The notes below the pieces were generated by a model. That model made no database searches and was not told the origin of the DNA. It saw nothing but the letters and a program-made list of their open reading frames with translations. This document shows positions 3,794 to 30,096 of a DNA stretch of 64,000 bases, piece by piece. The position numbers and the translations under genes were made by a program. The first letter of the stretch is position 1; the number at the start of each line of letters is the position of its first letter. Source of the stretch: an uncultured virus (IMG/VR IMGVR_UViG_3300028384_001589) (Duplodnaviria; Heunggongvirae; Uroviricota; Caudoviricetes); the IMG/VR virus record IMGVR_UViG_3300028384_001589; one strand, 5' to 3'.

Positions 3794-4996
3794 ATGATAG
3801 ACAAGAAACCATTTGAACAACTAATAGATAAACTTAAAGACGAAGGCAAGTACAGAGTCTTTAATGATATTCTTCGCGAACGTGGAGAATATCCTAATGC
3901 CATTTGGTATGGCAAGTACAATATTAAAAACATTGTAAATTGGTGCTCGAATGATTATCTTGGTATGGGCCAGCACAAAGTCGTTTTAGATGCCATGCAT
4001 ACTGCTCTCGATCAAACCGGAGCAGGTTCGGGTGGGACAAGAAACATTGGTGGAACATCTCATTATCATGTAGCACTTGAACATGAGTTGGCTCAACTGC
4101 ATAGCAAAGAGTCTGCACTCTTGTTCACGTCTGCTTACGTAGCAAATGAATGGACTCTTGTTTCACTTAAACGTATCATTCCCGACATTGTGTTCCTATC
4201 TGATAGTAAGAATCATGCAAGCCTTATCCAAGGGATTCGACACAGTGGTGCTGAGAAACACATTTTTCCGCACAATGATCTTGAAACATTAGAACAACTA
4301 CTGCGAGACGTCGAAGGCACTCCTTGCATCGTCTTCGAGTCTGTGTATAGCATGGATGGATACGTCAGTAAAATTCCAGAAATTTGTGCGTTGGCAAAGA
4401 AGTACAACGCTATTACCTATCTCGACGAAGTTCATGCTGTAGGCTTGTACGGTAATACCGGCGCAGGTTATGCAGAGAAACTTGGCTGTCTTAGCGAGAT
4501 AGACATTTTAAATGGCACACTTGGTAAGGCCTTTGGTGTGCAGGGCGGATACATTACAGGGAATAGTACTGTCATAGACGCTATCCGTTCTGTTGCCTCA
4601 GGCTTTATCTTTACTACTTCATTGAGTCCTGTTGTTTGTGCAGGAGCATTGGCTTCTATCAAATATCTAAAAGATCATAACGAACTAAGAGAAAAGCATC
4701 AACAACGTGCTTTACAATTAAAGACAGAATTCTTAAACGAAGGAATAGATGTGTTAGAAAATAGCACACACATTGTTCCTGTGATGGTTCGTGATGCTAA
4801 GAAAACAAAGGCTATGAGTGATATGTTATTAGATGACTATAACATTTACTGTCAGCCTATCAATTATCCAACAGTGGAAGAAGGAACAGAAAGACTGCGT
4901 TTCGCTCCCACGCCTTATCACACAGATGCTATGATTCATAACTTAGTAGACAGTATGCGTAAGGTTATTAAACGCTTCCAAGAAGGTTGCGTCTGA
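3794..4996 (+). CDS. hemA: 5-aminolevulinate synthase (PLP, Shemin pathway)
   Basis: WCSNDYLGMGQH, GAGSGGTRNIGGT, FESVYSMDG, DEVHAVGLYG, GTLGKAFG, GFIFTTSL. Confidence 0.95.
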   Translation: MIDKKPFEQLIDKLKDEGKYRVFNDILRERGEYPNAIWYGKYNIKNIVNWCSNDYLGMGQHKVVLDAMHTALDQTGAGSGGTRNIGGTSHYHVALEHELAQLHSKESALLFTSAYVANEWTLVSLKRIIPDIVFLSDSKNHASLIQGIRHSGAEKHIFPHNDLETLEQLLRDVEGTPCIVFESVYSMDGYVSKIPEICALAKKYNAITYLDEVHAVGLYGNTGAGYAEKLGCLSEIDILNGTLGKAFGVQGGYITGNSTVIDAIRSVASGFIFTTSLSPVVCAGALASIKYLKDHNELREKHQQRALQLKTEFLNEGIDVLENSTHIVPVMVRDAKKTKAMSDMLLDDYNIYCQPINYPTVEEGTERLRFAPTPYHTDAMIHNLVDSMRKVIKRFQEGCV

Positions 4997-7040: not shown

Positions 7041-7601
7041 TTAAAAAAAGGCGTCTACTGCTTCGTTGCCTGCGAGTTTGACACAGTCCATCCAACCTGC
7101 TTTGCCGTCTTTGCTGAAGAATATATGTGCCGGAGGATTTTCTATTTGAAGCCAACTGCCATGATGTATCTCCATTGCAAGTTGACGTGGATGCCATGTA
7201 CAAACACCTGCTAACATTTTGTAGTCTTTGGGTAGGTTGCCCATTGCTACTTTTTCAAGCATTACCCTATCACTGCTTATTGCAAGATCATGTGGTGTTT
7301 GATATGTTGCTTGACTGTTCCATTCATTAGAGTGTAACAATACTACTGTTTCCTCGGATACAGGTCCACCTTTGTAAAGTTTCTGCTCATTAGAAAGAAT
7401 ACCTACATCTGGTTCAATAGGATCTTTTTGTATCCTTAACACATCTGTAACTCTAAGTTTAGAAGGTTTATTAAGAACAAGTCCGTAAACTACATCGTCT
7501 TTTTCTTCATAGATGTAAACAACAGATTGTTTGAAAATTTCGTCGGTGTCCAGTGCAGGAGTTGCAACAAGGATCTTACCGCGGTACAATTGGTACGTCA
7601 T
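7041..7601 (-). CDS. YqgE/AlgH (DUF179) family protein
   Basis: GKILVATP, F..SVVYI, GLVLNKP, GGPV, GVCTW..QL..EI..GSW. Confidence 0.88.
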   Translation of the reverse strand: MTYQLYRGKILVATPALDTDEIFKQSVVYIYEEKDDVVYGLVLNKPSKLRVTDVLRIQKDPIEPDVGILSNEQKLYKGGPVSEETVVLLHSNEWNSQATYQTPHDLAISSDRVMLEKVAMGNLPKDYKMLAGVCTWHPRQLAMEIHHGSWLQIENPPAHIFFSKDGKAGWMDCVKLAGNEAVDAFF

Positions 7602-8141: not shown

Positions 8142-8753
8142 TTATGAAGGATTCGGAATAAACTCTGGGTTGTGAATGTAGCACACAGTCTTTTTAGGCA
8201 CATATGTAACCAACAACACTTTATCTTTGTCAGGGTGATTGTGTACATGGCCTTTAAATGCACTGTCGTGGGGTTTAACTTGGATAGGATACTCTCCTGC
8301 CCAACCATCAATACCTTGTGACTCTTCTTCTGCTGTACTAAACCTATAAGGCAAACCGTAGTAGTCAGCAACAACTCTAATAGCAACTTCTTCACCTCCC
8401 ATGCCCATATGTGTCTTATTGTACACAACTTCCTTGACATAGTCAATGCACATTTCTTCCGTAATGCCACCTACCTGCATCTTCTTAATCATAGTGTAGA
8501 TCTTTTTACCTGCTTCACTGAGGCCGTCACTGCCATGAGTGTCATTATAATACTTTGTCCACTCACTGAGGGTGCCTTTGATACCGTCACTACGCATCTG
8601 CAACCAGGTGTCTTTGCAATGGCCTACATACTTAGACCTAAAGGCCTGTGAGTTTTGACCTGCAATGTTTAGAATCTGTGTGGCATACTTAGGCCACTCG
8701 CGACGCCTTGGTTCGATTTTTGATTTGAAGTGTTTGCCTGTAAGTTTGATCAT
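8142..8753 (-). CDS. MjaI-family restriction-endonuclease-like protein
   Basis: PKYATQILNIA.QNSQA.R...VG N-terminal motif and EEESQGIDGW...PIQVKP PD-(D/E)xK-like core. Confidence 0.7.
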   Translation of the reverse strand: MIKLTGKHFKSKIEPRRREWPKYATQILNIAGQNSQAFRSKYVGHCKDTWLQMRSDGIKGTLSEWTKYYNDTHGSDGLSEAGKKIYTMIKKMQVGGITEEMCIDYVKEVVYNKTHMGMGGEEVAIRVVADYYGLPYRFSTAEEESQGIDGWAGEYPIQVKPHDSAFKGHVHNHPDKDKVLLVTYVPKKTVCYIHNPEFIPNPS

Positions 8754-10779: not shown

Positions 10780-11330
10780 TGGGATTAGAAACTCACTCAA
10801 TTGTTGAAATCAAAGAAAGGTTTCATAAGATAGGAAAAGAGGCACCTACCATGTGGTGGGAACACGGTGTTCTTTCAATTGACAATCCGGCAGAAGGTGA
10901 CATTGAAGAAATCAAAGATGTCATGGAGTCGGAGGTGTTGATGCCCGGCTTTGGTGTTGACTTTAATTGTCTGAAAGCCACAACCACAGAACCCTGGGAT
11001 CAATGGGTAATGGATGTGGTAGAAAAGAAGTCTGTATGACAGACATTTTATATTTGATCCTGTTCTTTGCAGGAGTTTATGCGATCCCACTTTGGGCATT
11101 ATGGAAGTGGGACAGAGAGGAACCTAATGGAAAGTGATATTTGGTTAGCGATCAAAGTGATAGCCTGTGGCTTGGCTTTGGTCTATTGCGGTTATATTTT
11201 AGGCCGTGACAAGGGTGTGAAACTTGGTGCTTCAAACGCCATCGATAAACTATGTGAAGGCGGTTATTTGAAGTTCACAAAGATTCGTGGTGACATTGAG
11301 ATCCACAAATTGGACGAAAATAAAGGTTGA
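10779..11330 (+). CDS. two small hypothetical ORFs (10779-11039; about 11127-11330)
   Basis: ORF track; RBS present. Confidence 0.6.
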
Positions 11331-13245: not shown

Positions 13246-13320
13246 TGGGGTGTAGCCAAGCGGTAAGGCAACCGGTTTTGATCCGGTCATGCGGTGGTTC
13301 GAATCCATCCACCCCAGCCA
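13246..13320 (+). tRNA. tRNA-Gln (UUG)
   Basis: Acceptor TGGGGTG/CACCCCA, anticodon arm ACCGG-TTTTGAT-CCGGT, GGTTCGAATCC, encoded CCA. Confidence 0.95.
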
Positions 13321-13430
13321 ACTTTTTTTATAACCTGTTGATTTTGTTGGAGTTTTTTCTGCAAAAAGAGGTTGACCTTTTGAGTGTTTGAGCCTATAAT
13401 GTATGTATAGTTAGAAATTAGGAGGGCACT

Positions 13431-14050
13431 ATGTTAAACACAGATCTTAAATTTACAACCGCAGGCACTATGGATTCATTTGAAAAGCAGATGGATTACC
13501 ATACCACTTATGGCAAGACTTGGGGCGCCAATACTGTTTGGTCAATCTATGACGAAGACGGTTATGGTGAAATCAAGTTTGGCGATAAACTTCCCGAAGA
13601 ACTTGTAGACGGCATTGGCTTTTTAGAATACAATGGCTCATGGTTCAACGACGAAGGCGACTTTGACTACTCAATGAAAGATGTTTTGAAGGCAAAGACC
13701 TGGGGCGACCTTTGGGCACAGATTGATGAAATGATCATGGGAAGTGGTGATCATCATCACATCTACATTGAAGCGATCACTCGTGATCCAAAGCGTTCAA
13801 ACATTCTTCAAATTCACACAGGATCTTAATCATGTTCAAAGATATTCAAGTAGGCGATACAGTTTATTTTTCAACACCACACACCGCAGAGATGAAAGGT
13901 CGTGCGGTAATGAAAGGCCCAGCAGGTTGGGTAGTGAACACAGGCGGACGCCACGGCACTCCCAAGGTGGTTGGTGAATCAAACTTTATCAAACTTCGTA
14001 AGGGTCGCAACCGTAAGCCAGATCATTTAGGAGCGTTCTTAAATGGATAG
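13431..14050 (+). CDS. two early hypothetical ORFs (13431-13829, 13832-14050)
   Basis: Promoter 13372 and GAGGGCA RBS. Confidence 0.75.
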
Positions 14051-14555
14051 ATTAGAAAAGGCCAAACTGTTCTCAAAGGTAGCACATGAGGCCATAGGAC
14101 AGAAAAGAAAATACACAGGAGAGCCATACTTCAATCACCCCCTACGGGTAATGAAGTTGGTGGCTTCTGTCCTACCCGACGATGAGGATGCTCAAATCGT
14201 GGCACTCCTACACGACACGGTTGAGGACACTGATGTGACCTTGGCATTCATTCGTGACGAGTTTGGCCAACGGGTAGAGAGAGGCGTCTTTGCTCTTACG
14301 GACACTCCGACAGTGGAAGGCGGTCCGAACAGAAAAGAACGAAAGAAGATGGACCGTGAGCGTCTTTCTAAGGCAGAAGGTTGGATTCAAACTGTGAAGG
14401 TTGCAGACATGATTGATAACACTTCAACCATCGTTGAAAACGATCCTAACTTCGCAAAGGTTTATCTTGAGGAGAAGCGTCTATTGATGAAGGTTCTCAA
14501 AGATGCTGACCCCAACCTAAAAGAAGATGCCGAAAAGTTCTTGACTTCTGCTTAG
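14043..14555 (+). CDS. HD-domain phosphohydrolase, small alarmone hydrolase (Mesh1/SpoT-HD-like)
   Basis: AH..Q.RK..GEPY..HP..V, ALLHDTVEDT, VKVAD.IDN. Confidence 0.85.
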   Translation: MDRLEKAKLFSKVAHEAIGQKRKYTGEPYFNHPLRVMKLVASVLPDDEDAQIVALLHDTVEDTDVTLAFIRDEFGQRVERGVFALTDTPTVEGGPNRKERKKMDRERLSKAEGWIQTVKVADMIDNTSTIVENDPNFAKVYLEEKRLLMKVLKDADPNLKEDAEKFLTSA

Positions 14556-15219: not shown

Positions 15220-15281
15220 GGGTTGACTTTACCCACCTCTGAGTATATTATAATAGTATAAACTAAACAAATGAGGGCAAT

Positions 15282-15849: not shown

Positions 15850-16034
15850 GCGATCGTGGGGGTGTCCCCTGGTAGGACTGGTTATAGACCATCGCTATAG
15901 AATAGGAGCCTACAAATTAGAAGCCGGTTAATGTTTTTGGCTCGTTTTACTAACCCTAAAGAAAAACGAGCAATTTTTTGTTTGACTTTACTCGGGGCAG
16001 AGTATAGTATAAAACTATAACAAAGAGAGGGCAT

Positions 16035-16586: not shown

Positions 16587-16663
16587 GAGGTTGACTTTGT
16601 CAGTCAGAGACTGTATTATATAAGAACAATAAGGGCACAGACACACAAACAAAGGAGGGCAAT

Positions 16664-18246: not shown

Positions 18247-19094
18247 TAGCAGACGAAGTCGGTCCGCAAAATTTTTCACGCGACAGCGGAGCGGTAAATT
18301 TTCTAACTCGCGAAGCGAGTAGCGGCCGCGAGCGATTTCCCCTAAGGAGCAGAAACCAACTCGCAGAATTGGCTGGAATACCCGCTTATGAGGTGCACAT
18401 AGAAGAAACACACAATGACGATGGAACAGTGGATGTTCACATAGCCACACACGAGATCAGCAAGGATAATCACACAAAACCTAATTTGACCCTTATATCT
18501 AACGATAACATGGATAAGGACAATTAGAACCCTATAAGCACCGTAGAGCAGAGTGTAGAGGTTCTCGTTGCTATATGACGCTCGTATACAGTCTTAGAAC
18601 CCTAATATGCTCGTTGACTCGCATATAGTTCACTTCGCTCACTATACACAGTCTAACACACATAGTGGGAGGCCCCGCTGTAAGGGTCTACACCATAGGC
18701 CCCGCTGTAGGTTTTTAGGTAGATTGGTGTGGGAGAATGGCGAGAGAAGGGTGGTAGAGTATTTGAACTATGCCTCTCGTCACCTCAGTCAATCAAATTT
18801 TTTTGGAACACAAATCCACACAATTCTACACTCTTCCACACGATTCTGCCACATCTGACCACCATTGTAGGCACCTTAGAAGCACCATAAAACACCCTGT
18901 TTTCACCATTATTCCACGGTGTCGCTCGAGGAGCAAAAGGGATGCCTCGCTCCCACAACCGTGCTCTACCATACAGTATAGGGTCTGGAGTTCGAACTGA
19001 TCTTATACAGTAATCTTCTCTATACACTATGTGAGAACCACTGACCCTATACTGTATACGAGTGTTGGACCGCCCCTTATTACTACACTATGGG

Positions 19095-19228
19095 TCACTA
19101 CCTCACTGCTCACTATGTCACTATCGCTATACGGGTCACTGCCTTTGTGCCTTTGGGTCTCACTATGATTTGGTTCACTGCAGGGAGGTCGGTGGCGGTC
19201 ACTAAGGAGATCTTTGGAGCGATCACTG
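19095..19228 (+). repeat. nine direct TCACT(A/G) hexamers
   Basis: At 19095, 19103, 19110, 19118, 19136, 19160, 19175, 19199, 19223. Confidence 0.75.
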
Positions 19229-19230
19229 CC

Positions 19231-19323
19231 TGTGTATAAGTCTGTAGATAACCTGTGGACAACCTGTGGACAACCTGTGGATAACTCGGGAGAGAGGGTG
19301 GGTTGTGGATAACCTGTGGATAA
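19231..19323 (-). promoter_or_regulatory. array of seven co-oriented DnaA boxes
   Basis: Minus-strand TTATACACA (19231), TTATCTACA (19243), TTGTCCACA (19254, 19265), TTATCCACA (19276, 19304, 19315); mostly 11-bp spacing. Confidence 0.88.
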
Positions 19324-19389: not shown

Positions 19390-19515
19390 TGCCACAGGTG
19401 TTCTTTCTGTATCGGGCCCTGAACCTTCAGGCACCTGGGGTGTATTGAACTCCGGTATCTGGCCCTCTTGCTTAACGTTCCCGGCGGTTTGGACTTGCCC
19501 TGTGTCCCTTATTGT
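19390..19515 (-). ncRNA. candidate small RNA 1 (or origin-priming transcript)
   Basis: Consensus promoter (-35 at 19545-50, -10 at 19522-27) with no credible ORF downstream; several hairpins. Confidence 0.5.
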
Positions 19516-19655
19516 TCTTACAGTATATGATCATTCATTCAAAAGGTCAACCAAAAAAGATGATTATTTTTGAATTTTTTTTGGCATTTAGGGGTTGACT
19601 TTTGGTTGGGGTGGTGCTATAGTATAAACATAATATGAAAACGAGGGCACAGAAC

Positions 19656-20171
19656 ATGATGGAATTGATGGCACACATTAAGGCGGAGAATGCAAAGACC
19701 CAGGCTTGGGTTGCAGAGGACCCCAAGAATCGTTGGGCGGGTCTTTACCCAGAGGATGAGGCTCATTGGGTAGAGCGTGGGATCACCACGGTTGAGGACC
19801 TCGAGCGTGACGAGTTGGCCACTTATATATACGAGGGCCACAAGGACGCTTTTGGTGTCAAGGGTCGCCACTACGACTTTGAGGCTATGAGCCTTGAGGA
19901 TCTGCGTTCAGAGGCGGACTATATTAGCCGTTCGGTCAAGGAGCAGATGGAGTTGGAGGCCAACATGGAGGCCGAGGCTGTGGCTCGTTATGAGGCTTCC
20001 ATTAGGGAGTATATGCAGATGGGTGCTGAGGATCGTGACACAGCGATTCGTTGGTTGCTTCAAGCGGAGGGTCTTGAGAACGAGTATGACCCATCCTATG
20101 TATGCTATTCTCTGGGGCTACCCTACGAGATGGCCAAGGAATTTGAGGCGCACATGAAGAGCGCCGCGTAA
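19656..20171 (+). CDS. early hypothetical protein
   Basis: Start moved to the ATG after GAGGGCA (19643). Confidence 0.8.
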   Translation: MMELMAHIKAENAKTQAWVAEDPKNRWAGLYPEDEAHWVERGITTVEDLERDELATYIYEGHKDAFGVKGRHYDFEAMSLEDLRSEADYISRSVKEQMELEANMEAEAVARYEASIREYMQMGAEDRDTAIRWLLQAEGLENEYDPSYVCYSLGLPYEMAKEFEAHMKSAA

Positions 20172-20217
20172 CGGGTAGAGGAGTAGAAACCCTGTTAGAC
20201 CTGACACCTATCACATA

Positions 20218-20354
20218 AGATCAGGCGGGAAAGGGGAGGCGCCCTCGAGAAAGGCCTCCCACCATTCGTGGTGATACCTCACAGAAAATCAGGTCGTGTT
20301 GGGTGTTTGTCTCCGACCCAGGATTTCAGCCGCCCTAACCTTTTTTCTTATTAT
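20218..20354 (-). ncRNA. candidate small RNA 2 (multibranch)
   Basis: Promoter -35 at 20384-89, -10 at 20361-66; closing stem 20218-28/20330-41; G-U pairs favour the minus strand; no ORF. Confidence 0.6.
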
Positions 20355-20479
20355 GCTTATAGTATATGATCTTCTATCCAAAATGTCAACCAAAATCTTC
20401 ATCTTTTTTTGGTAAAAAAATGGTTGACCTTTGATGGTTTTGGTGCTATAGTATAAGAATAATAAGGAGGGCAACACAT

Positions 20480-20933
20480 ATGTCAAAAACAAAAAACTAC
20501 TTAATGGACCAGGAAGAAGAGTTCTACACTATAGCAGAACAGCAGATCAAAGGCTGTGAACACATAGACGAGTTCAAGACAGCAATGGAGCCATTCTCCA
20601 GCATGGTGAGTTGGAACTTTGATCCGCAGAGTGCGGCTTGGGAATTTGACGATTTGATCTCAGAGTTATGGTCAGAATACTGGAGCAAATACGCGGCCTA
20701 AATTAGGGGTTGACAAACCAATATTTTGGTTGTATAGTATAAACATAAACTAAAACAAAGAGGGCAAAATGTTAGAACTAATTGGATTTATCGCAATCGC
20801 TTACATCATCTACAAGTTGGCACCTGTGGTGCTGGAAGTAGGTTTCAAGTTTGCTATCATCTGCATAGGCTTGGTAGCGTTCTTATTCATGGTGAGCATC
20901 TTTATGAGCACCTGGACTGTGTGGGTATCTTAA
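20480..20933 (+). CDS. two small early ORFs (20480-20701; 20769-20933, membrane)
   Basis: Each has its own promoter and GAGGGCA RBS. Confidence 0.7.
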
Positions 20934-21589: not shown

Positions 21590-21653
21590 AATGGTTGACA
21601 AATTGGATAGTAGGTGCTATTATATAAACATAAACTAAAAAAGCGAGGGCAAT

Positions 21654-22708
21654 ATGCGTAGACAGATTAAATTAGGAACCAAGGTCAACAGCAGATTTGG
21701 TGAGGCCAAGGTACAATCGATCGCTCTGTGTGAACAAGAGGGCGACAAGGAAGGTATCCCAATCAAGGCTGTTTGGCTGGATTTGAAAGACCGTTGTGTG
21801 TTCGATCTGGACAATGGGCATTGGTGTTATGGGTATCAGGTAACTGTAGAATGATATCATTCTTCACAGCCGTAGGCTTATTTTGGACCTGCTGGTTTTG
21901 GATGGAGATCCCCATGCTGGTCAACACCCACCCAGATGCAGAGAACCTGTGGGTGTATATCTGGACTTTTACTGCTGTGACCCACACCTGTTGGCTTGGT
22001 TGGTGGTGGGGAAGAGCCCCATAATATGGGCGAAAATAAATGGTTGACTTTTGAATATTTTGGTGCTATTATATACACATAATGAAACAAAAGAAAGAGG
22101 GCAATATGTTTAGAAAAATTTCAACAGGGTTTGGTGCACTGTGTTTGATGATGGGTATCATCGTTATGGCTGGTTCAGCAGGCGACTGTGATGGCAAATG
22201 TATGGAGGTGGCTAATACACTTCCTGAAATGTTGATGCTGGCTGGCGTGGGTGTGATCCTATGTATCAGCGGAGCGTTCTTTATCGTGGTAGGTCGTAGT
22301 GAATAAGATCCTCCCTATCATAATCGCTGGCATGATGCTGACAGGCTGTGGCACTATGACAGCAAAGGATTCTATCAAAATGATTAACCTGGCCAAGAAT
22401 GCAAGTATGATCACCCAGGCGGGAGTCTCAGAAGAGATCACCAACTGTGTGAAAGATGTGTTCGACCCAGGCAACAGAGGGAGTGGTTGCTAATGAAATA
22501 TCTACTTCTATCTGCACTGTTCTCCCTGAATGTGGAGTATGCTGACCTAAGCACCTGCGAACAAGCACTTGAACAGGTCAAGCAACACGACAAGCAGGCC
22601 ATCTGTATCCCGGCAGGCAAAGACAAGGGTGATCAGATGTTTGACAAGTTTTTGGGCATGGTCCAACAATTACAGAAATTGGACAACCAAAAGACACAAA
22701 CTGATTGA
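21654..22708 (+). CDS. five small early ORFs (21654-21854, 21851-22024, 22106-22306, 22299-22493, 22493-22708), several membrane or lipoprotein-like
   Basis: Promoters 21595 and 22044 with GAGGGCA RBS; coupled starts. Confidence 0.6.
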
Positions 22709-22773: not shown

Positions 22774-23100
22774 ATGGCTACAAATAAAACTTATACCGTT
22801 GCTGGCACAAGTTCATTCAATGGCAAAACCAAAGTAAGGTTTGCTCAGGACTATGTGTCAAGGTTCAAAATCTTGAACAAGAATGGTCACTCAGACATTG
22901 AGTTGATCGAACTTGATGGTGCAATGAGCAAAGCAGATATCTGTAAGTTCCTAATGGGACATGAGAAGTTCCAATCGGAAGCACAACAGTCTGCGATTTC
23001 AGAGTTCGTTGTAAGAAACGTCAAGAAGGCGGACACTACTCCTGCTCAACCAACTGCTGAAGTAGAGCAGACAGTTGAAGCAGAATTAGAAACTGCGTAA
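22774..23100 (+). CDS. hypothetical phage protein
   Basis: Own promoter; AGGAGG RBS. Confidence 0.8.
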   Translation: MATNKTYTVAGTSSFNGKTKVRFAQDYVSRFKILNKNGHSDIELIELDGAMSKADICKFLMGHEKFQSEAQQSAISEFVVRNVKKADTTPAQPTAEVEQTVEAELETA

Positions 23101-23270: not shown

Positions 23271-23357
23271 GCTCCGGTGGCGGAATAGGTAGACGCAACG
23301 GACTTAAAATCCGTTATCGGTTACGGTGTGTGGGTTCGAGTCCCTCCCGGAGCACCA
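23271..23357 (+). tRNA. tRNA-Leu (UAA)
   Basis: GCTCCGG/CCGGAGC acceptor, ACGGA-CTTAAAA-TCCGT, long variable arm, CCA. Confidence 0.95.
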
Positions 23358-23361
23358 TCAT

Positions 23362-23438
<77 letters not shown>

Positions 23439-23583
23439 AACACCTCGGGAGAGTGGCGCAGAGACCACTCGTGCATAGTGATAGACGGCGGGGATCCTAT
23501 GCAATTTTTTTTAAAATAATGGTTGACTTTTGGTTTCAAAGACTGTATAGTGTAACTATAAACTAAAAAATAGAGAGGGCAAA

Positions 23584-24109
23584 ATGGCAACAGATCTTAA
23601 ATCACACGCACAGGACGTATCGTTAACAAGGTTTTGGGGCGGAGAGAAACGCGGAGTATGCGTTCAAGTTACAGCAAAGAGAGCGGATTCACAACCTACG
23701 GGTTTATTACCCGACACTGGTTTTGAAACGGTCCAATTGACACGAGCACAGGCGGCGGCATTGGCGGCTGACTTGTTGGACTTTGCACAGAGCAGAGAAC
23801 AGGAAGAATACGGAAATTAGGGGTTGACATTTGAAGATGTTGACTGTATACTGTAAGAACAATTAAACAAACGAGGGCAATATGAAACTTAAAATCATCG
23901 GATCAAACCAAACTGAAATCACAACTGCACGTGGCAACAAGGTTCTCTACTCATATGAGACTCCAGTAGCGGCCAAGACAGAGCAGGGCATTTTCAGAAC
24001 TTCAACCAAATACAGTGTAACCACTACCAAGCACATCAACTCATACCTGGGCGGTCCAAACGAAGGCATTGTCGCGGACCAAAAGTTTTTTGACAATTTG
24101 GTAGTTTAG
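23584..24109 (+). CDS. two small early ORFs (23584-23820, 23882-24109)
   Basis: Each has its own promoter and GAGGGCA RBS. Confidence 0.75.
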
Positions 24110-24167
24110 GGGTTGACTTATGCATTCAATGAGTTTATTATTAATATAACAATTAGGAGGGCAACTT

Positions 24168-25175
24168 ATGCAAAAGATTAAAATCGTAGAGGGTACATAC
24201 AAAATCAGAGGCAAAGACGTGGATCTTGGCGGTATGGTATTTCCCCTTGTAGAAGAATTTAAAGTAGGCGCCAACGGTGGCTACGTAACAGTCGATGGAA
24301 CTGCTGTAGCAGGCTTCCCGGATCGTAACATCAAGATCAAGGTTGATAGCGCCGACTGCTACACTGCTGTTAACGCAAACACCAAGATCACACAGCGTGA
24401 AGAATCAGACGAAGAGACCATTGAGCGTCTTAGAGAGCGATTCAGTATACTTGAAGACATGACCCGTGCTTGTAAGAAGGGTGATGTACGAGCAATGATC
24501 GTAAGTGGCCCTCCAGGCGTAGGTAAATCGTTTGGTGTAGAGAAAGTGCTGGGTAAGCACGACTTGGTGGCCACACTGGGTGAACGACCTGCTAAGTATC
24601 AGGTTGTCAAGGGCGCGATGAGTGCAATTGGTCTCTACTGTAAACTGTACAACTACGCAGACAAAGACAATGTACTTGTGTTTGATGACTGTGACTCAGT
24701 ACTAATGGATGACCTGAGTTTGAACATCCTCAAAGCGGCTCTTGATTCAAAGAAGACAAGAACCATTCACTGGAACACAGACTCATTCAAGTTGCGTAAC
24801 GAGGGTGTGCCGGATTCATTCGAGTTCAAAGGTTCGGCGATCTTTATCACCAACATCAAATTCGACAACGTTAAAAGCAAGAAGTTGCGAGATCACCTCG
24901 AAGCACTTGAATCACGTTGTCACTATATTGACCTCACAATTGATACGGAGAGGGAGAAGATGCTACGTATCAAGCAGATCGTGCAAGACGGTATGCTTAG
25001 TGAGTATGACTTTACCGAAGAACAGCATGAGGCGGTTGTGGACTTCATTGATATTAATAAGTCCAAACTACGTGAACTGAGTTTACGTACTGTTCTAAAG
25101 GTAGCCGACTTGGCCAAAGCGTTCCCTGCTAATTGGGAAGCAATGGCTGAGAGTACAGTGTTACAAAGAGCATAG
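24168..25175 (+). CDS. AAA+ family ATPase
   Basis: Walker A GPPGVGKS, Walker B VLVFDDCD, sensor IFITN, arginine-finger-like ALESR. Confidence 0.9.
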   Translation: MQKIKIVEGTYKIRGKDVDLGGMVFPLVEEFKVGANGGYVTVDGTAVAGFPDRNIKIKVDSADCYTAVNANTKITQREESDEETIERLRERFSILEDMTRACKKGDVRAMIVSGPPGVGKSFGVEKVLGKHDLVATLGERPAKYQVVKGAMSAIGLYCKLYNYADKDNVLVFDDCDSVLMDDLSLNILKAALDSKKTRTIHWNTDSFKLRNEGVPDSFEFKGSAIFITNIKFDNVKSKKLRDHLEALESRCHYIDLTIDTEREKMLRIKQIVQDGMLSEYDFTEEQHEAVVDFIDINKSKLRELSLRTVLKVADLAKAFPANWEAMAESTVLQRA

Positions 25176-25233
25176 CCCTCACGCTCCAACACTGTATTCG
25201 AACCCCTGGGATGTGCCCTCGTCCTGGGGGTTC
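25151..25233 (+). ncRNA. twin hairpin with GCCCUC in both loops (candidate antisense RNA)
   Basis: Stems 25151-62/25188-99 (with inner GAGC/GCTC) and 25200-12/25221-33; loops ATAGCCCTCAC and GTGCCCTC. Confidence 0.6.
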
Positions 25234-25333
25234 CCCTTGACAGAACGCCCACAAAATAAGTGGAAATTAGGGGTTGACATTTTGGTATTCAGAGCCTATA
25301 ATGTATATACACACTAAGGAAAAGAGGGCAAAT

Positions 25334-25669
25334 ATGCAAGACACATACGTAGTAAACAAGTTCAAGGCAGGCGAAGTACACTTTCAACGTGGCGCCGCAG
25401 GTTGGTTGTTTGACTCAGGTGAGTTCCGTCCACTAATGGATGACGCCATGGAGCAACTGCTCGAAGCAGGCTGTGTTGACCAAGAGTGCGTTGAAGAAAC
25501 AGCACGTCAGAGAGATGTGTACGTGGAACAGTCACTGAAAGAGTACGTTGAAGCACAGCGTAACAGAACCCCAGAGCAGATCGCAGAAGAGCGTTTTGAA
25601 GCAAGGGCGGCTATGGGACCAGGCGTTGAAATGGTCAACATCATAACAGGAGAACGATACACAACCTAA
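25334..25669 (+). CDS. early hypothetical protein
   Basis: Start moved to the ATG after GAGGGCA (25324). Confidence 0.75.
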   Translation: MQDTYVVNKFKAGEVHFQRGAAGWLFDSGEFRPLMDDAMEQLLEAGCVDQECVEETARQRDVYVEQSLKEYVEAQRNRTPEQIAEERFEARAAMGPGVEMVNIITGERYTT

Positions 25670-25752
25670 GGGTTGTGTATTTTTTGGTTGACCTTTGCGT
25701 CAACTGACAGTATAGTAATACTATAAACAATTAACAAAGAGGGCAAAACACT

Positions 25753-26100
25753 ATGAACATTCAAGCAATACACACTGAAGCAACCGCAAAAGCACAGGAC
25801 GCTGTGGCAGACTTCTTAACAAGATGGAATGAGCAGACTGGCGGCAACGAGTATGGAGAGCCAATGTACTGTGGCTTTGCGTGGGTTGATGTCAGTGTTG
25901 AAAGAACCAACTCACGGGAAGCCAAACTACTGGAGAGCATAGGCTTCAAGAAGAGTTACAGACCCAAGACCATGACACTGTGGGATCCTGCTAACCACAG
26001 AGGACAGAGCATGGACTGTAAAGAGCATGGTGCTCAGGCATATGCAGAAGTGCTAAGGGCACATGGGTTCAAAGCATACATGGGTAGCAGAGCAGACTAA
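25753..26100 (+). CDS. early hypothetical protein
   Basis: Own promoter and GAGGGCA RBS. Confidence 0.8.
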   Translation: MNIQAIHTEATAKAQDAVADFLTRWNEQTGGNEYGEPMYCGFAWVDVSVERTNSREAKLLESIGFKKSYRPKTMTLWDPANHRGQSMDCKEHGAQAYAEVLRAHGFKAYMGSRAD

Positions 26101-26125
26101 CTCCTACAAATAATAAACAGGAAAG

Positions 26126-26154
26126 GGCCGGTGGAGACATCGGCCTTTTTTTTT
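26126..26154 (+). terminator. intrinsic terminator ending the early region
   Basis: GGCCGGTG-GAGA-CATCGGCC followed by T9. Confidence 0.9.
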
Positions 26155-26277: not shown

Positions 26278-26434
26278 AAGTACTTCTTTTTATTTTTTCG
26301 CGGTCTTCACTATATGGGCACAGGACCCTTTTCACAGTATTCACAGTTAGCACAGCAAAAGAGCCTGGTAGAATGGTCAAGTACTTCTCAAAATTTTTAC
26401 GCACACACTCATTTTGGGTTGCAGGACCCTTTTC
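26278..26434 (+). repeat. degenerate direct repeat, 101-bp period
   Basis: AAGTACTTCT-N33-CAGGACCCTTTTC at 26278-26333 and 26379-26434. Confidence 0.75.
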
Positions 26435-27107
26435 GAGTGTAAATACTATATGCACTGTGTAGTACACTCAAAACGTGGTAGACCTCAGCAGTACTGTGTA
26501 TACGATGCACAGGGTCGCATAGTAATCATCACAACCTCTAAACGCATAGCACTTGGATATAAGCATGAAAGGACATAATCACTACTGCATATACACACGT
26601 GACTTTGATCGCTGTCTTGGCTTGTTCAAGGAGTTTGCTACGCATGACATCAACTACGAAGCACACATCAATAGAACACGAAGATCATGCCACAGGCTCA
26701 TAGCATTACACTCGTATACAAGAAAGCACAACGCAACTTTGTAGTAGAAGACATCCACACGCACTGTGCTTGTGTAGAACTACTGTGTAACTATCAGATA
26801 CACTGTAGCCAGTCAAGTTCGGATACACTCGTGTTTGAATCAGCACAGGACGCATTTAGAGCATACTTTTATTTGAGTGGTCATGACCTCTACACACCCT
26901 GTCTGCGTGAAACTACAGACCCATAGAACACAGTAGTATACAGTTAGTACAGTTAGAAGCCAAGGGGCAAAAATCTCTTTACCGATCCGTGCTTACCGCA
27001 GTGCTTCGCACGTTCTAAAAAACCGCTTTACCGATTCTCGGCTACAATCTGGCGCTGAACCGCTTCGCGGCATAAGTACACTATAGCGGTCAACAACGGG
27101 AGGGCGT

Positions 27108-27350
27108 ATGTGGACAATGTTTATATCAATCTGTGTGTTTGGTCAGTGTTCGTGGCTTGAAGTAGAAGCACCCACATACTCAGACATAGCACAGTGCGAA
27201 CATCATGCACAGGTCACAAGGCTTAATTTATTGGGTCAACTTGCAGACGATCGTGTTACAGTATTCACTGAATGCATACCTCTACATCAGCGAGAACAGT
27301 TTCGTCAAGATCGTTTAAAATCACACCATTTAAGCCAACCTACACAATAG
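27108..27350 (+). CDS. small hypothetical protein
   Basis: GGAGGG RBS. Confidence 0.55.
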   Translation: MWTMFISICVFGQCSWLEVEAPTYSDIAQCEHHAQVTRLNLLGQLADDRVTVFTECIPLHQREQFRQDRLKSHHLSQPTQ

Positions 27351-27513
27351 GTGTTTTAAATACAGTTGTAGGCACTGCGTTGGCTGAATCAAGTAAGATA
27401 GGAACTATCAAAATCAAACAGTTCAACAGTCGGCTCAAACGGTAGGCACTACGTGAAGTTAACCGAGTATATTTCCATGAATCTGAATAAATAGATTCAA
27501 GGAGCAACAGAAC

Positions 27514-29786: not shown

Positions 29787-29824
29787 TATACTCAAAACAC
29801 ATACCTGCTATGCTAAATACTAAT

Positions 29825-29874
29825 ACGTTCGAGCAACACGCTTGGAAGTAGACACTATGTCGAAGGAACGCACC
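29825..29874 (+). promoter_or_regulatory. glutamine riboswitch (glnA/Downstream-peptide class)
   Basis: CGTTC-[GAGC/GCTT]-GGAAGTA-[GAC/GTC]-GAAGGAACGCA: P1 CGTTC/GAACG with E-loop signature. Confidence 0.8.
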
Positions 29875-29901: not shown

Positions 29902-30096
29902 ATGGAAAGACACTCATTTATGCTCAAGCAATATTCTGAGCAACAACTACGTAAAAAGAAAGAAATGGAATTATGGAAGGCTCGTCAAGAGGTTGACATA
30001 AATGCCAATGGTACTTCTGGATATGTGGTAAAGCATGGTCCTAACAAAGATAAAATCTTAGGACATCAGTCTACTAAATCTACCAACAACTGGTAA
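29902..30096 (+). CDS. small protein downstream of the glutamine riboswitch
   Basis: AAGGAGG RBS directly after the aptamer. Confidence 0.75.
   Translation: MERHSFMLKQYSEQQLRKKKEMELWKARQEVDINANGTSGYVVKHGPNKDKILGHQSTKSTNNW

What the first reader, a model, noticed from the sequence alone, without database searches (positions are those of the whole stretch)
25151..25233. Twin hairpin displaying anti-GAGGGC loops: candidate antisense switch for an early-gene regulon
Seen: at the end of the AAA ATPase gene are two adjacent hairpins. The first pairs GAGTACAGTGTT with AACACTGTATTC, has an inner GAGC/GCTC stem and the loop ATAGCCCTCAC. The second pairs GAACCCCTGGGAT with GTCCTGGGGGTTC and has the loop GTGCCCTC. 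Both loops carry GCCCUC, and the second is the exact complement of GAGGGCA(C). That motif is the RBS of 15 early leaders, including the ATPase's own (24157). Established: C-rich loop-displayed seeds that pair with SD sequences are how RNAIII- and RsaE-type RNAs repress translation. Inference: a 3'-derived sRNA shuts off or times the GAGGGCA class of early genes together, with negative feedback. I do not recognise this as a described phage system.
Basis: partly seen in the sequence, partly recalled or inferred. Interest (0 to 1): 0.85.

Follow-up and report, generated by a model that had tools for sequence, protein, structure and literature searches.

The report
Phage anti-RBS hairpin array RNA
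Large uncultured phages carry a row of RNA hairpins behind an early ATPase gene, and the hairpin loops are the mirror image of the ribosome-binding signal of their own early genes and change in step with it between lineages, which points to an RNA-only switch for turning early genes down.

Summary
The twin hairpin folds as described (z -7.6). Its loops complement GAGGGC(A), which lies just before the start of 15 sigma70-driven genes, including the upstream gene, a T4 NrdC.10-like AAA+ ATPase. In relatives the element is an array of mostly 2-5 hairpins with freely changing, compensated stems and fixed loops; 62 of the 63 closest loci have the motif right behind the stop. Loop and leader change together. 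A second clade has UUCGCUCC loops with GGAGCGA leaders, and more distant phages have trailers matching their ATPase's own leader (p<1e-4; not seen for other genes). Extra copies lie behind tRNA clusters and behind a gene whose leader does not match, which argues for action in trans. Best reading: a 3'-UTR antisense element that began as icaR-like self-silencing of the ATPase mRNA and expanded to repress a whole early-gene class, an RNA counterpart of T4 RegB. Not shown: a discrete sRNA, strand or ends, the pairing itself, and its sign. The main A/B switch is one phylogenetic event, and some genomes mismatch. No Rfam family or paper found.

The parts
24113..24141 (+). sigma70-type promoter of the ATPase gene (-35 at 24113, 17-nt spacer, -10 ending 24141; 10 of 12 matches)
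24157..24163 (+). GAGGGCA in the ATPase's own leader, overlapping its SD; predicted cis target
24168..25175 (+). T4 NrdC.10-like AAA+ ATPase, 335 aa (phrog_1250); all-beta N-terminal domain of no named family; function unknown
25151..25199 (+). hairpin 1; 5' arm in the coding end, 11-nt loop holding the UAG stop and GCCCUC (25175-25180)
25200..25233 (+). hairpin 2, 14 bp with G-U pairs, loop UGCCCU (25214-25219); no U tract here, U tract follows the last hairpin in many relatives
25274..25302 (+). next early promoter (12 of 12 matches), bounding the element
20234..20260 (+). second, solitary GCCCUC-loop hairpin behind ORF 19656-20171; same hairpin type in L001-L003, L010, L021, L041
9786..9792 (+). 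GAGGGCA leader, predicted trans target (ORF 9797)
13422..13428 (+). GAGGGCA leader, predicted trans target (ORF 13431)
15273..15279 (+). GAGGGCA leader, predicted trans target (ORF 15282)
16027..16033 (+). GAGGGCA leader, predicted trans target (ORF 16035)
16655..16661 (+). GAGGGCA leader, predicted trans target (ORF 16664)
19643..19649 (+). GAGGGCA leader (ORF from ATG 19656); could also pair in cis with the 20234-20260 hairpin
20467..20473 (+). GAGGGCA leader, predicted trans target (ORF 20480)
20760..20766 (+). GAGGGCA leader, predicted trans target (ORF 20769)
21645..21651 (+). GAGGGCA leader, predicted trans target (ORF 21654)
22097..22103 (+). GAGGGCA leader, predicted trans target (ORF from ATG 22106)
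23575..23581 (+). GAGGGCA leader, predicted trans target (ORF 23584)
23873..23879 (+). GAGGGCA leader, predicted trans target (ORF 23882)
25324..25330 (+). GAGGGCA leader, predicted trans target (ORF from ATG 25334)
25739..25745 (+). GAGGGCA leader, predicted trans target (ORF 25753)
27100..27105 (+). GAGGGC(G) variant leader (ORF 27108), no TTGAC promoter found; possible 16th target

Best explanation
The 3' end of the early NrdC.10-like ATPase transcript folds into a row of stable hairpins. Each shows the same short pyrimidine-rich seed in its loop. The seed base-pairs (6-8 bp, G-C rich) with a private ribosome-binding motif (GAGGGCA here) carried by the ATPase's own leader and by most genes behind the phage's sigma70 early promoters. 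The duplex covers the SD and out-competes the 16S tail, so translation initiation is blocked, possibly with decay. It acts in cis or between copies as negative feedback on the ATPase, which is probably the older role. It also acts in trans on the early class as the structured 3' fragment builds up, giving a delayed, RNA-only damping of early gene expression. Shown: structure, strand bias, class-specific complementarity, co-variation, extra copies without a matching cis leader. Inferred: pairing in vivo, repression rather than another outcome, persistence or release of the 3' fragment, and timing.
For: Loop display: 136 of 144 distinct array sites sit in loops on stems of 8 or more pairs, against 33 of 144 with shuffled flanks and 34 of 81 for the motif elsewhere. 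Compensation: pairs 3-5 beside the core are intact in 44 of 44 distinct hairpins, with five pair types each. Strand: G-U outnumbers A-C 149:98 (clade A) and 95:63 (clade B). Class specificity in the window. Co-variation: clade B has UUCGCUCC loops with GGAGCGA leaders. The cross matrix is diagonal: A loops pair 6.3-6.4 nt with A leaders and 4.4-4.7 with B/B' leaders; B loops pair 5.9-7.5 with B/B' leaders and 3.9 with A leaders. The letter after the leader core follows the loop: A in 290 of 371 (clade A) and 267 of 329 (clade B). Further matched pairs occur in L160, L158, L258, L254, L055, L386, L263, L372, L359/360, L368/371/377. Own-leader match in 37 distant loci: -13.35 against -11.22 +/- 0.43 kcal/mol, p<1e-4. 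It is specific to the ATPase gene: run of 8 nt or more in 10 of 30 ATPase genes and 10 of 176 other genes. Trans: copies directly behind tRNA clusters in 14 of 43 clade A loci. Copies behind another gene in 10 loci, none with GGAGC in the 140 nt upstream and 9 of 10 with their own promoter. Hold-out metagenome set, counted by eye: 39 GCCCUC arrays all with an AGGGC leader and 9 CGCUCC arrays all with GGAGCG leaders, among 64 new rows. RNA-library contigs cover the element in runs of two studies.
Against: The A/B switch is a single event on the tree. Fine co-variation inside clades is weak: A p=0.11 (own leader) and 0.09 (other leaders); B p=0.13 and 0.004. Some genomes mismatch. L218 and L255 have mostly GAGGAGCA leaders with GCCCUC loops. 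L215/L060 and L226 have few matching leaders. L051's own ATPase leader does not match although 5 of its 6 leaders do. In L217 the AGGGCA box lies upstream of the SD, not on it. Only 371 of 647 clade A leaders and 330 of 604 clade B leaders carry the core. No promoter for a separate RNA and no canonical terminator in the window. Hairpin 1 overlaps the stop codon, so translating ribosomes would melt it. G-U counts from plain MFE folds did not separate the strands (220 against 212). Loop number against early-leader density: rho 0.30, p=0.07. No experiment.
Confidence: 0.62

Rival explanations
1. Cis-only autoregulation. The loops silence only the mRNA they sit on (icaR/hok-like 5'-3' pairing). 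The other early leaders share the motif by descent, or act as competitors that titrate the loops, so that ATPase translation reads out the level of early mRNA.
For: The own-leader match is the most constant signal: 6 nt or more in 60 of 67 (A), 41 of 43 (B) and 16 of 16 (B') loci, and longer on average than for other leaders. It extends to distant loci without a large regulon. L218 fits the own leader better than its dominant leader class.
Against: Copies behind tRNA clusters have no mRNA leader in direct cis (14 of 43). Ten copies follow a gene whose leader does not match. The 15 leaders share only a median 8 nt of exact sequence, so they are not recent duplicates. L051's own leader mismatches while its other leaders match.
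Confidence: 0.2
2. The pairing is real but its outcome is not repression. The array could tether early mRNAs to ribosomes or to the ATPase, protect them, or mark them for a nuclease, acting as an adaptor for a private translation code.
For: Arrays carry other conserved loop types with no leader match (CCAUUAGAAG-like, CUAAGAG-like, AAGCACAAAA) that could bind a protein or the ribosome. Tight linkage to one AAA+ ATPase across distant clades. Upstream-of-SD boxes in L217.
Against: The paired segment covers the SD in nearly all leaders. The leaders already pair with the standard 16S tail (-6 to -12 kcal/mol), and replication genes use ordinary AGGAG-type SDs. Clade B keeps the array but its ATPase lacks the N-terminal domain (276 aa). 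The characterised C-rich loop-SD pairings I looked up repress (PMC2790875, PMC3868564, PMC4132741 abstracts).
Confidence: 0.1
3. Protein- or DNA-level site. GAGGGC/GCCCTC is one double-stranded binding or recombination site read in both orientations, or a - strand RNA showing GAGGGC loops is a CsrB-like sponge for a protein that binds the leaders.
For: In duplex DNA the two motifs are the same site, and the - strand also folds with the motif open in 115 of 144 sites. The array-less sister clade has repeated AGGCA boxes in the ATPase leader, as a protein site might.
Against: G-U bias and folding favour the + strand. No - strand promoter downstream of the element. Orientation is strictly opposite in leaders and array. 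Letter-by-letter matches of 8-12 nt in distant loci (L386, L420, L455, L368) would need a protein to change specificity in each lineage.
Confidence: 0.05
4. Host shut-off decoy. The loops are general anti-SD baits for host mRNAs, and the phage-leader match is incidental.
For: Clade D loops (CUCCUC repeats) and clade B loops would also pair with ordinary GGAG SDs.
Against: GCCCUC loops pair poorly with ordinary SDs in the window. Loops track the phage's own leaders between lineages.
Confidence: 0.03

Closest known systems
Staphylococcus aureus icaR 3'-UTR / SD pairing (PMC3868564: abstract and section 14 read)
   Same: A pyrimidine-rich motif in the 3' UTR complementary to the same mRNA's SD. 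In icaR it blocks initiation and makes an RNase III substrate.
   Different: icaR has one motif and one known target, and the paper reports that ectopic 3'-UTR did not act in trans. Here the seed is repeated, loop-displayed, shared with some 15 other leaders, and co-varies between lineages.
RsaE, RNAIII and LhrC C-rich sRNAs (PMC2790875 and PMC4132741: abstracts only; RNAIII details recalled)
   Same: Unpaired C-rich seeds, several per RNA in LhrC, that pair with target mRNAs and block ribosome loading.
   Different: Those are bacterial sRNAs whose UCCC seed reads ordinary SDs. Here the seed reads a phage-private SD variant that differs by clade, the RNA is a 3'-UTR or tRNA-trailer array, and there is no Rfam match.
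C4 antisense RNA of phages P1/P7 (described in passages of PMC5320573; listed as RF01695 in PMC2864571)
   Same: Phage RNA whose loops pair with target mRNA and occlude a ribosome-binding site.
   Different: C4 has two different loops (a', b'), a three-stem fold, RNase P processing and a role in immunity and lysogeny. Here identical loops are repeated and the targets are a class of early-promoter genes. No RF01695 hit.
T4 RegB endoribonuclease (PMC3014915: passages)
   Same: Same logic: an early product inactivates early mRNAs through a motif in their SD, including its own.
   Different: RegB is a protein nuclease cutting GGAG. Here the proposed effector is RNA, and only 5 of the 15 leaders have GGAG at the motif (read).
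T4 NrdC.10 (PMC1524935: passages)
   Same: The upstream gene is a homologue (35% over 258 aa, E 3e-53; top named structural hit).
   Different: T4 and six other cultured carriers show only 5-7 nt leader/trailer runs and no array. PA5oct has an 8-nt match, but inside a stem.

Membership tests
RsaE/RNAIII/LhrC-type C-rich sRNA | unpaired C-rich seed complementary to target SD | tested here: met
   (complementarity and loop display; binding not tested)
RsaE/RNAIII/LhrC-type C-rich sRNA | seed is UCCC, or sequence/structure homology to these families | tested here: not met
   seed is GCCCUC; no Rfam hit over the element at gathering or E<=5 or in 6 related loci
RsaE/RNAIII/LhrC-type C-rich sRNA | discrete, stable transcript | tested here: inconclusive
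   no own promoter; RNA contigs cover it but give no ends or strand
RsaE/RNAIII/LhrC-type C-rich sRNA | blocks 30S initiation complex | not testable with these tools
   needs toeprinting or reporters
icaR-type 5'-3' UTR pairing | 3' UTR complementary to the same mRNA's SD | tested here: met
   7-nt run in the window
icaR-type 5'-3' UTR pairing | single cis target | tested here: not met
   15 further matching leaders and copies without a cis match
icaR-type 5'-3' UTR pairing | RNase III substrate, translation block | not testable with these tools
   experiment needed
C4 antisense RNA (RF01695) | covariance-model match; three stems with distinct a'/b' loops | tested here: not met
   loops here are repeats of one seed
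CsrB/RsmZ-type protein sponge | RNA shows the same motif as the target mRNAs (would need the - strand) | tested here: not met
   + strand favoured; no - strand promoter downstream; strand not measured directly
T4 RegB system | GGAG in target SDs | tested here: not met
   5 of 15 leaders have GGAG at the motif
T4 RegB system | regB gene | tested here: inconclusive
   none among 67 window proteins scanned against PHROGs; the rest of the genome is not held
Intrinsic terminator | G-C hairpin followed by a U tract | tested here: inconclusive
   not called in the window; U tract within 75 nt of the last motif in 43 of 63 clade A and 43 of 43 clade B loci
NrdC.10-like AAA+ ATPase | sequence and fold homology to T4 NrdC.10, with Walker A and B motifs | tested here: met
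   (GxPGxGK and DDCD invariant or nearly so)

The most novel reading that the evidence does not exclude
A broad group of large lytic-type phages has evolved a private, lineage-specific RBS address code on its early genes, together with multivalent anti-RBS hairpin arrays supplied from several 3' trailers (ATPase mRNA, tRNA operon, other early units). The arrays switch the whole early class off without a protein repressor or nuclease: an RNA-only counterpart of RegB that grew out of one gene's 5'-3' self-silencing and is re-programmed by paired changes in seed and RBS.
Probability: 0.5. Interest if true: 0.93.

Novelty: new variant of a known kind. Interest (0 to 1): 0.86.

Why it matters
How phages without a RegB-like nuclease turn down early genes is largely open, and few trans-acting phage RNAs have known targets (my knowledge). 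Here the targets, the seed and natural compensatory variants can all be read from sequence, so the mechanism is testable at once with reporters and toeprints. It gives a series from single-gene 5'-3' self-pairing to a regulon-wide array. It flags the uncharacterised, widespread NrdC.10 ATPase as dosage-controlled. It also offers naturally orthogonal seed/RBS pairs as parts for translation control.

Tried and rejected
1) Chance: rejected by shuffles and conservation.
2) Plain terminator: does not explain the fixed loops, the several hairpins or the co-variation; the last hairpin may double as a terminator.
3) Altered host anti-SD: replication genes use ordinary AGGAG/GGAGG SDs.
4) Recent duplication of promoter cassettes: exact shared tract median 8 nt, maximum 16, over 105 pairs.
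5) G-U counting on MFE folds gave no strand signal; replaced by a symmetric test, whose sites are not phylogenetically independent.
6) Whole-mRNA MFE does not show the 5'-3' contact; loop-strand pairing is outside that model, so this is uninformative.
7) MAFFT alignment of the arrays was too gapped for covariation counts; loop-anchored counting was used instead.
8) N-terminal domain as an Sm/Hfq-like chaperone: single-sequence model poor (pLDDT 57, not fold-searched); Atlas gave only unnamed relatives; whole-model searches covered only the AAA+ part; clade B lacks the domain. No support.
9) Cultured homologues of the array: none by blastn. T4-like carriers show no leader/trailer pairing (KPV15 row dropped because its start was set wrongly).
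10) An AGGCA-complementary array near the ATPase in the array-less sister clade: none among strong hairpins in the loci scanned; it could lie outside the fetched flanks.
Stretches without cover (19000-19283, most of 26384-27500) are only a weak hint against DNA carry-over. Depth cannot rank parts.
12) Automatic binning misplaced L303, L351, L433, L438 (into A) and L446 (into D). The first four were excluded or re-binned; L446 was re-binned.
13) Atlas search for the 22774-23100 protein gave nothing.

Full report
Observation. The 83 nt fold at -43.2 kcal/mol in one dominant structure, z -7.56, with 0 of 200 shuffles as stable. With flanks, the + strand scores z -4.6 and the - strand z -1.8. Hairpin 1 (25151-25199) begins in the coding end of ORF 24168-25175, and its 11-nt loop contains the stop codon and GCCCUC. 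Hairpin 2 (25200-25233) has a 6-nt open loop, UGCCCU. GAGGGCA occurs 15 times on + and once on - (hairpin 2), against 3.4 expected. Each + copy sits just before an ATG behind a sigma70-type promoter. I scored 94 hand-picked gene starts of the window against the two loops. The 16 best were the 16 GAGGGC leaders (15 of the 24 sigma70-led starts, plus 27108), and 0 of 42 minus-strand genes have the motif. Loop-leader duplexes (-13 to -21 kcal/mol, loop strain not modelled) beat the 16S-tail duplexes (-6 to -12). Replication genes use ordinary AGGAG-type SDs, so the motif marks a class of genes, not an unusual host ribosome.

Context. The gene is a T4 NrdC.10 homologue: 35% over 258 aa, E 3e-53; phrog_1250; nearest named predicted structure NrdC.10 of Aeromonas phage 25. 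The model is a generic AAA+ fold, pLDDT 90, with no close solved relative. PMC1524935 (passages) calls NrdC.10 an AAA ATPase of unknown role. The window holds UvsX, SSB, DnaB-like helicase, primase and a DNA polymerase fragment. The closest cultured carrier is the PA5oct group at 43%, and related contigs reach about 380 kb, so this is a large uncultured phage. The ATPase has its own promoter (24113-24141). No internal promoter for a separate RNA and no canonical terminator were found.

Conservation. Of the first 80 loci, 62 of 63 (L001-L063) have GCCCU(C/U) within 300 nt of the stop and 60 have two or more. L052 has the array displaced by about 450-870 nt, and 0 of 17 more distant loci (L064-L080) have it. 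The twin hairpin is a short form. Motif number per locus was 1, 2, 3, 4, 5 in 2, 22, 26, 10, 3 of 63 clade A loci. Of 144 distinct sites, 136 are loop-displayed on stems of 8 or more pairs, against 33 of 144 with shuffled flanks, 34 of 81 for the motif elsewhere, and 115 of 144 on the - strand. In 44 distinct hairpins with the same core, pairs 3-5 are intact in 44 of 44 with five pair types each. A symmetric wobble count favours the + strand: 149:98 in 185 of 215 sites and 95:63 in 114 of 128 (sites not independent). An MFE-based count did not (220:212). A U tract follows in 43 of 63 clade A and 43 of 43 clade B loci, so the last hairpin often doubles as a terminator.

Co-variation. A second clade has the array in the same place with UUCGCUCC loops, and its early leaders read GGAGCGA. 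A related group (B') carries the same loop about 800 nt further on, behind downstream genes. Across 133 loci with loops and a called ATPase leader, the pairing matrix is diagonal: A loops pair 6.3-6.4 nt with A leaders and 4.4-4.7 with B/B' leaders, and B loops pair 5.9-7.5 with B/B' leaders and 3.9 with A leaders (five loci were mis-binned). The extra A of GAGGGCA, which the 16S tail does not explain, faces the U of the loop; it is present in 290 of 371 clade A leaders with the core. On a FastTree tree of 110 proteins, clade A is one branch (support 84), so A against B counts as one event. More events come from other branches: L160 (AGCGAGG leaders, CCUCGCU loop), L258 and kin (GGAGAGA or GGAGCAA leaders, long CUCC-repeat loops that follow them), L254, L055, L386, L263, L372, L359/L360. 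For an unselected test I took 37 of 87 loci outside clades A and B, after 90% de-duplication. The 100 nt after the stop paired better with their own ATPase leader than with permuted ones (-13.35 against -11.22 +/- 0.43, p<1e-4; runs of 12, 11 and 10 nt in L420, L455, L368). The same-genome control shows this is special to the ATPase. Run length was 6.77 against 5.66 for other leaders of the same locus (n=30, p=0.01), and 5.43 against 5.31 for 176 other genes (p=0.65). In a later metagenome set, 64 of 80 rows were new and usable. By eye, 39 had GCCCUC arrays, all with an AGGGC leader; 9 had CGCUCC arrays and 6 had the displaced form, all with GGAGCG leaders; 10 showed neither.

Results against. 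Within-clade co-variation is weak (A p=0.11 and 0.09; B p=0.13 and 0.004). L218 and L255 keep GCCCUC loops although most of their leaders read GAGGAGCA. L215/L060 and L226 have few matching leaders. L051's ATPase leader does not match. L217 carries the box upstream of the SD. Only 371 of 647 and 330 of 604 distinct leaders carry the clade core. T4 and six other cultured carriers show no such pairing; PA5oct has 8 nt, inside a stem.

Cis or trans. The own-leader match is the most constant (60 of 67, 41 of 43 and 16 of 16 loci with 6 nt or more), which suggests icaR-like self-silencing as the root. Three observations point beyond it. First, in 14 of 43 clade A loci with tRNAs in view, a GCCCUC site lies 22-34 nt behind the last tRNA of a cluster, mostly in the loop of a long hairpin. 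None was found in 26 B or 14 B' loci, and the window lacks this copy. tRNA processing could free it as a non-coding RNA (inference). Second, in 10 of 89 distinct trailers of the 22774-23100 gene family a UCGCUCC hairpin follows the stop. None of the ten has GGAGC in the 140 nt upstream, and nine have their own promoter. Third, the window has a solitary conserved copy at 20234-20260. The 15 leaders are not recent duplicates (median exact tract 8 nt), so the motif is kept by selection or arose repeatedly.

Expression. Contigs from RNA libraries of marine, seawater and salt-marsh metagenomes (4 of 20 listed runs laid, at 85% likeness) cover the early region. Pieces span the element in X1 (25035-25522) and X4 (24962-25283). 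They come from relatives and give no strand, ends or level.

Mechanism. Most likely the loops nucleate 6-8 bp duplexes over the SD and exclude the 30S subunit, as shown for RsaE, LhrC and icaR (abstracts of PMC2790875, PMC4132741, PMC3868564). The element is made from an early promoter and is strongly structured, so it should build up and damp its own gene and then the class. This is the same logic as T4 RegB, which inactivates early mRNAs, its own included, at GGAG in their SDs (PMC3014915, passages). Pairing, sign, persistence and timing are inferred. Rivals are cis-only feedback with titration by other early mRNAs (0.2), a non-repressive adaptor role (0.1), a protein or DNA site (0.05) and a host decoy (0.03).

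Novelty. No Rfam family covers the element, and blastn finds no cultured phage with the array. Ten library searches (listings only unless named) gave no description of it. Neither did passages of two motif surveys (PMC2864571, PMC5737381; their supplements not opened), nor a text search of PMC10690425 and 6 of its supplementary files. Three files of that paper were not searchable, so the structure may be among its unnamed candidates, and subscription journals are not covered. Each biochemical step has a precedent, so I file it as a new variant of a known kind. The architecture, a multivalent anti-RBS array co-evolving with a phage-private RBS class, is undescribed as far as these searches reach.

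Noticed in passing
window 29824-29874 (+): Glutamine riboswitch (RF01739, 38.1 bits, gathering 35) directly upstream of a 64-aa ORF (29902-30096, phrog_32989) in a phage genome.
   Followed up: no
window 3794-4996 (+): Phage-borne 5-aminolevulinate synthase (TIGR01821, above cutoff). From recall, this enzyme is typical of Alphaproteobacteria, a hint at the host.
   Followed up: partly
window 14043-14555 (+): Stand-alone HD-domain protein resembling the RelA/SpoT hydrolase domain, in the early region; possible alarmone hydrolase.
   Followed up: no
L064-L080, ATPase leaders: Sister clade without an array and without a GAGGGC class nearby, but with two or three repeated AGGCA/AGGGCA boxes in the ATPase leader; unexplained.
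   Followed up: partly
L044, L050, L057, L239, L295, L315, L341 arrays: Other recurring hairpin loops inside the arrays (CCAUUAGAAG-like, CUAAGAG-like; AAGCACAAAA in L016, L056) with no leader match; present in both clades, possible protein or ribosome contact.
   Followed up: no
L060 and L215 early leaders: Early leaders start with a GAGCG..GCUC mini-hairpin and have C-rich tracts before a GGAGA SD, a different leader design.
   Followed up: no
L154/L275 and other clade B loci: The ATPase lacks the N-terminal beta domain (about 276 aa) yet keeps the array.
   Followed up: partly
window 22774-23100 (+): 108-aa protein of no named family conserved in clades A, B and B'; followed by the tRNA cluster in clade A and by a seed hairpin in B'.
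   Followed up: partly
window 20136-20419: Run X5 shows high-depth contigs of a relative over the solitary hairpin at 20234-20260; contig depth is a poor measure of expression.
   Followed up: no
L081:9770-9800 and 10952-10990 (PA5oct gp126): 8-nt leader/trailer complement, held inside a hairpin whose 5' arm mimics the leader; possible cultured test case.
   Followed up: partly
window 19462-19467: A further + strand GCCCUC in a long intergenic stretch, not clearly loop-displayed.
   Followed up: partly
window 8142-8753 (-), 7041-7601 (-): MjaI-type restriction endonuclease and AlgH-like DUF179 genes.
   Followed up: no
window 13246-13317, 23271-23354, 23362-23435: Three tRNA genes.
   Followed up: no
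window 26084-26153: Strong hairpin plus long U tract ending the early block, followed by a G-rich, T-run-rich non-coding stretch; a weak sroB score (E 0.28, below gathering) is probably due to the terminator.
   Followed up: no
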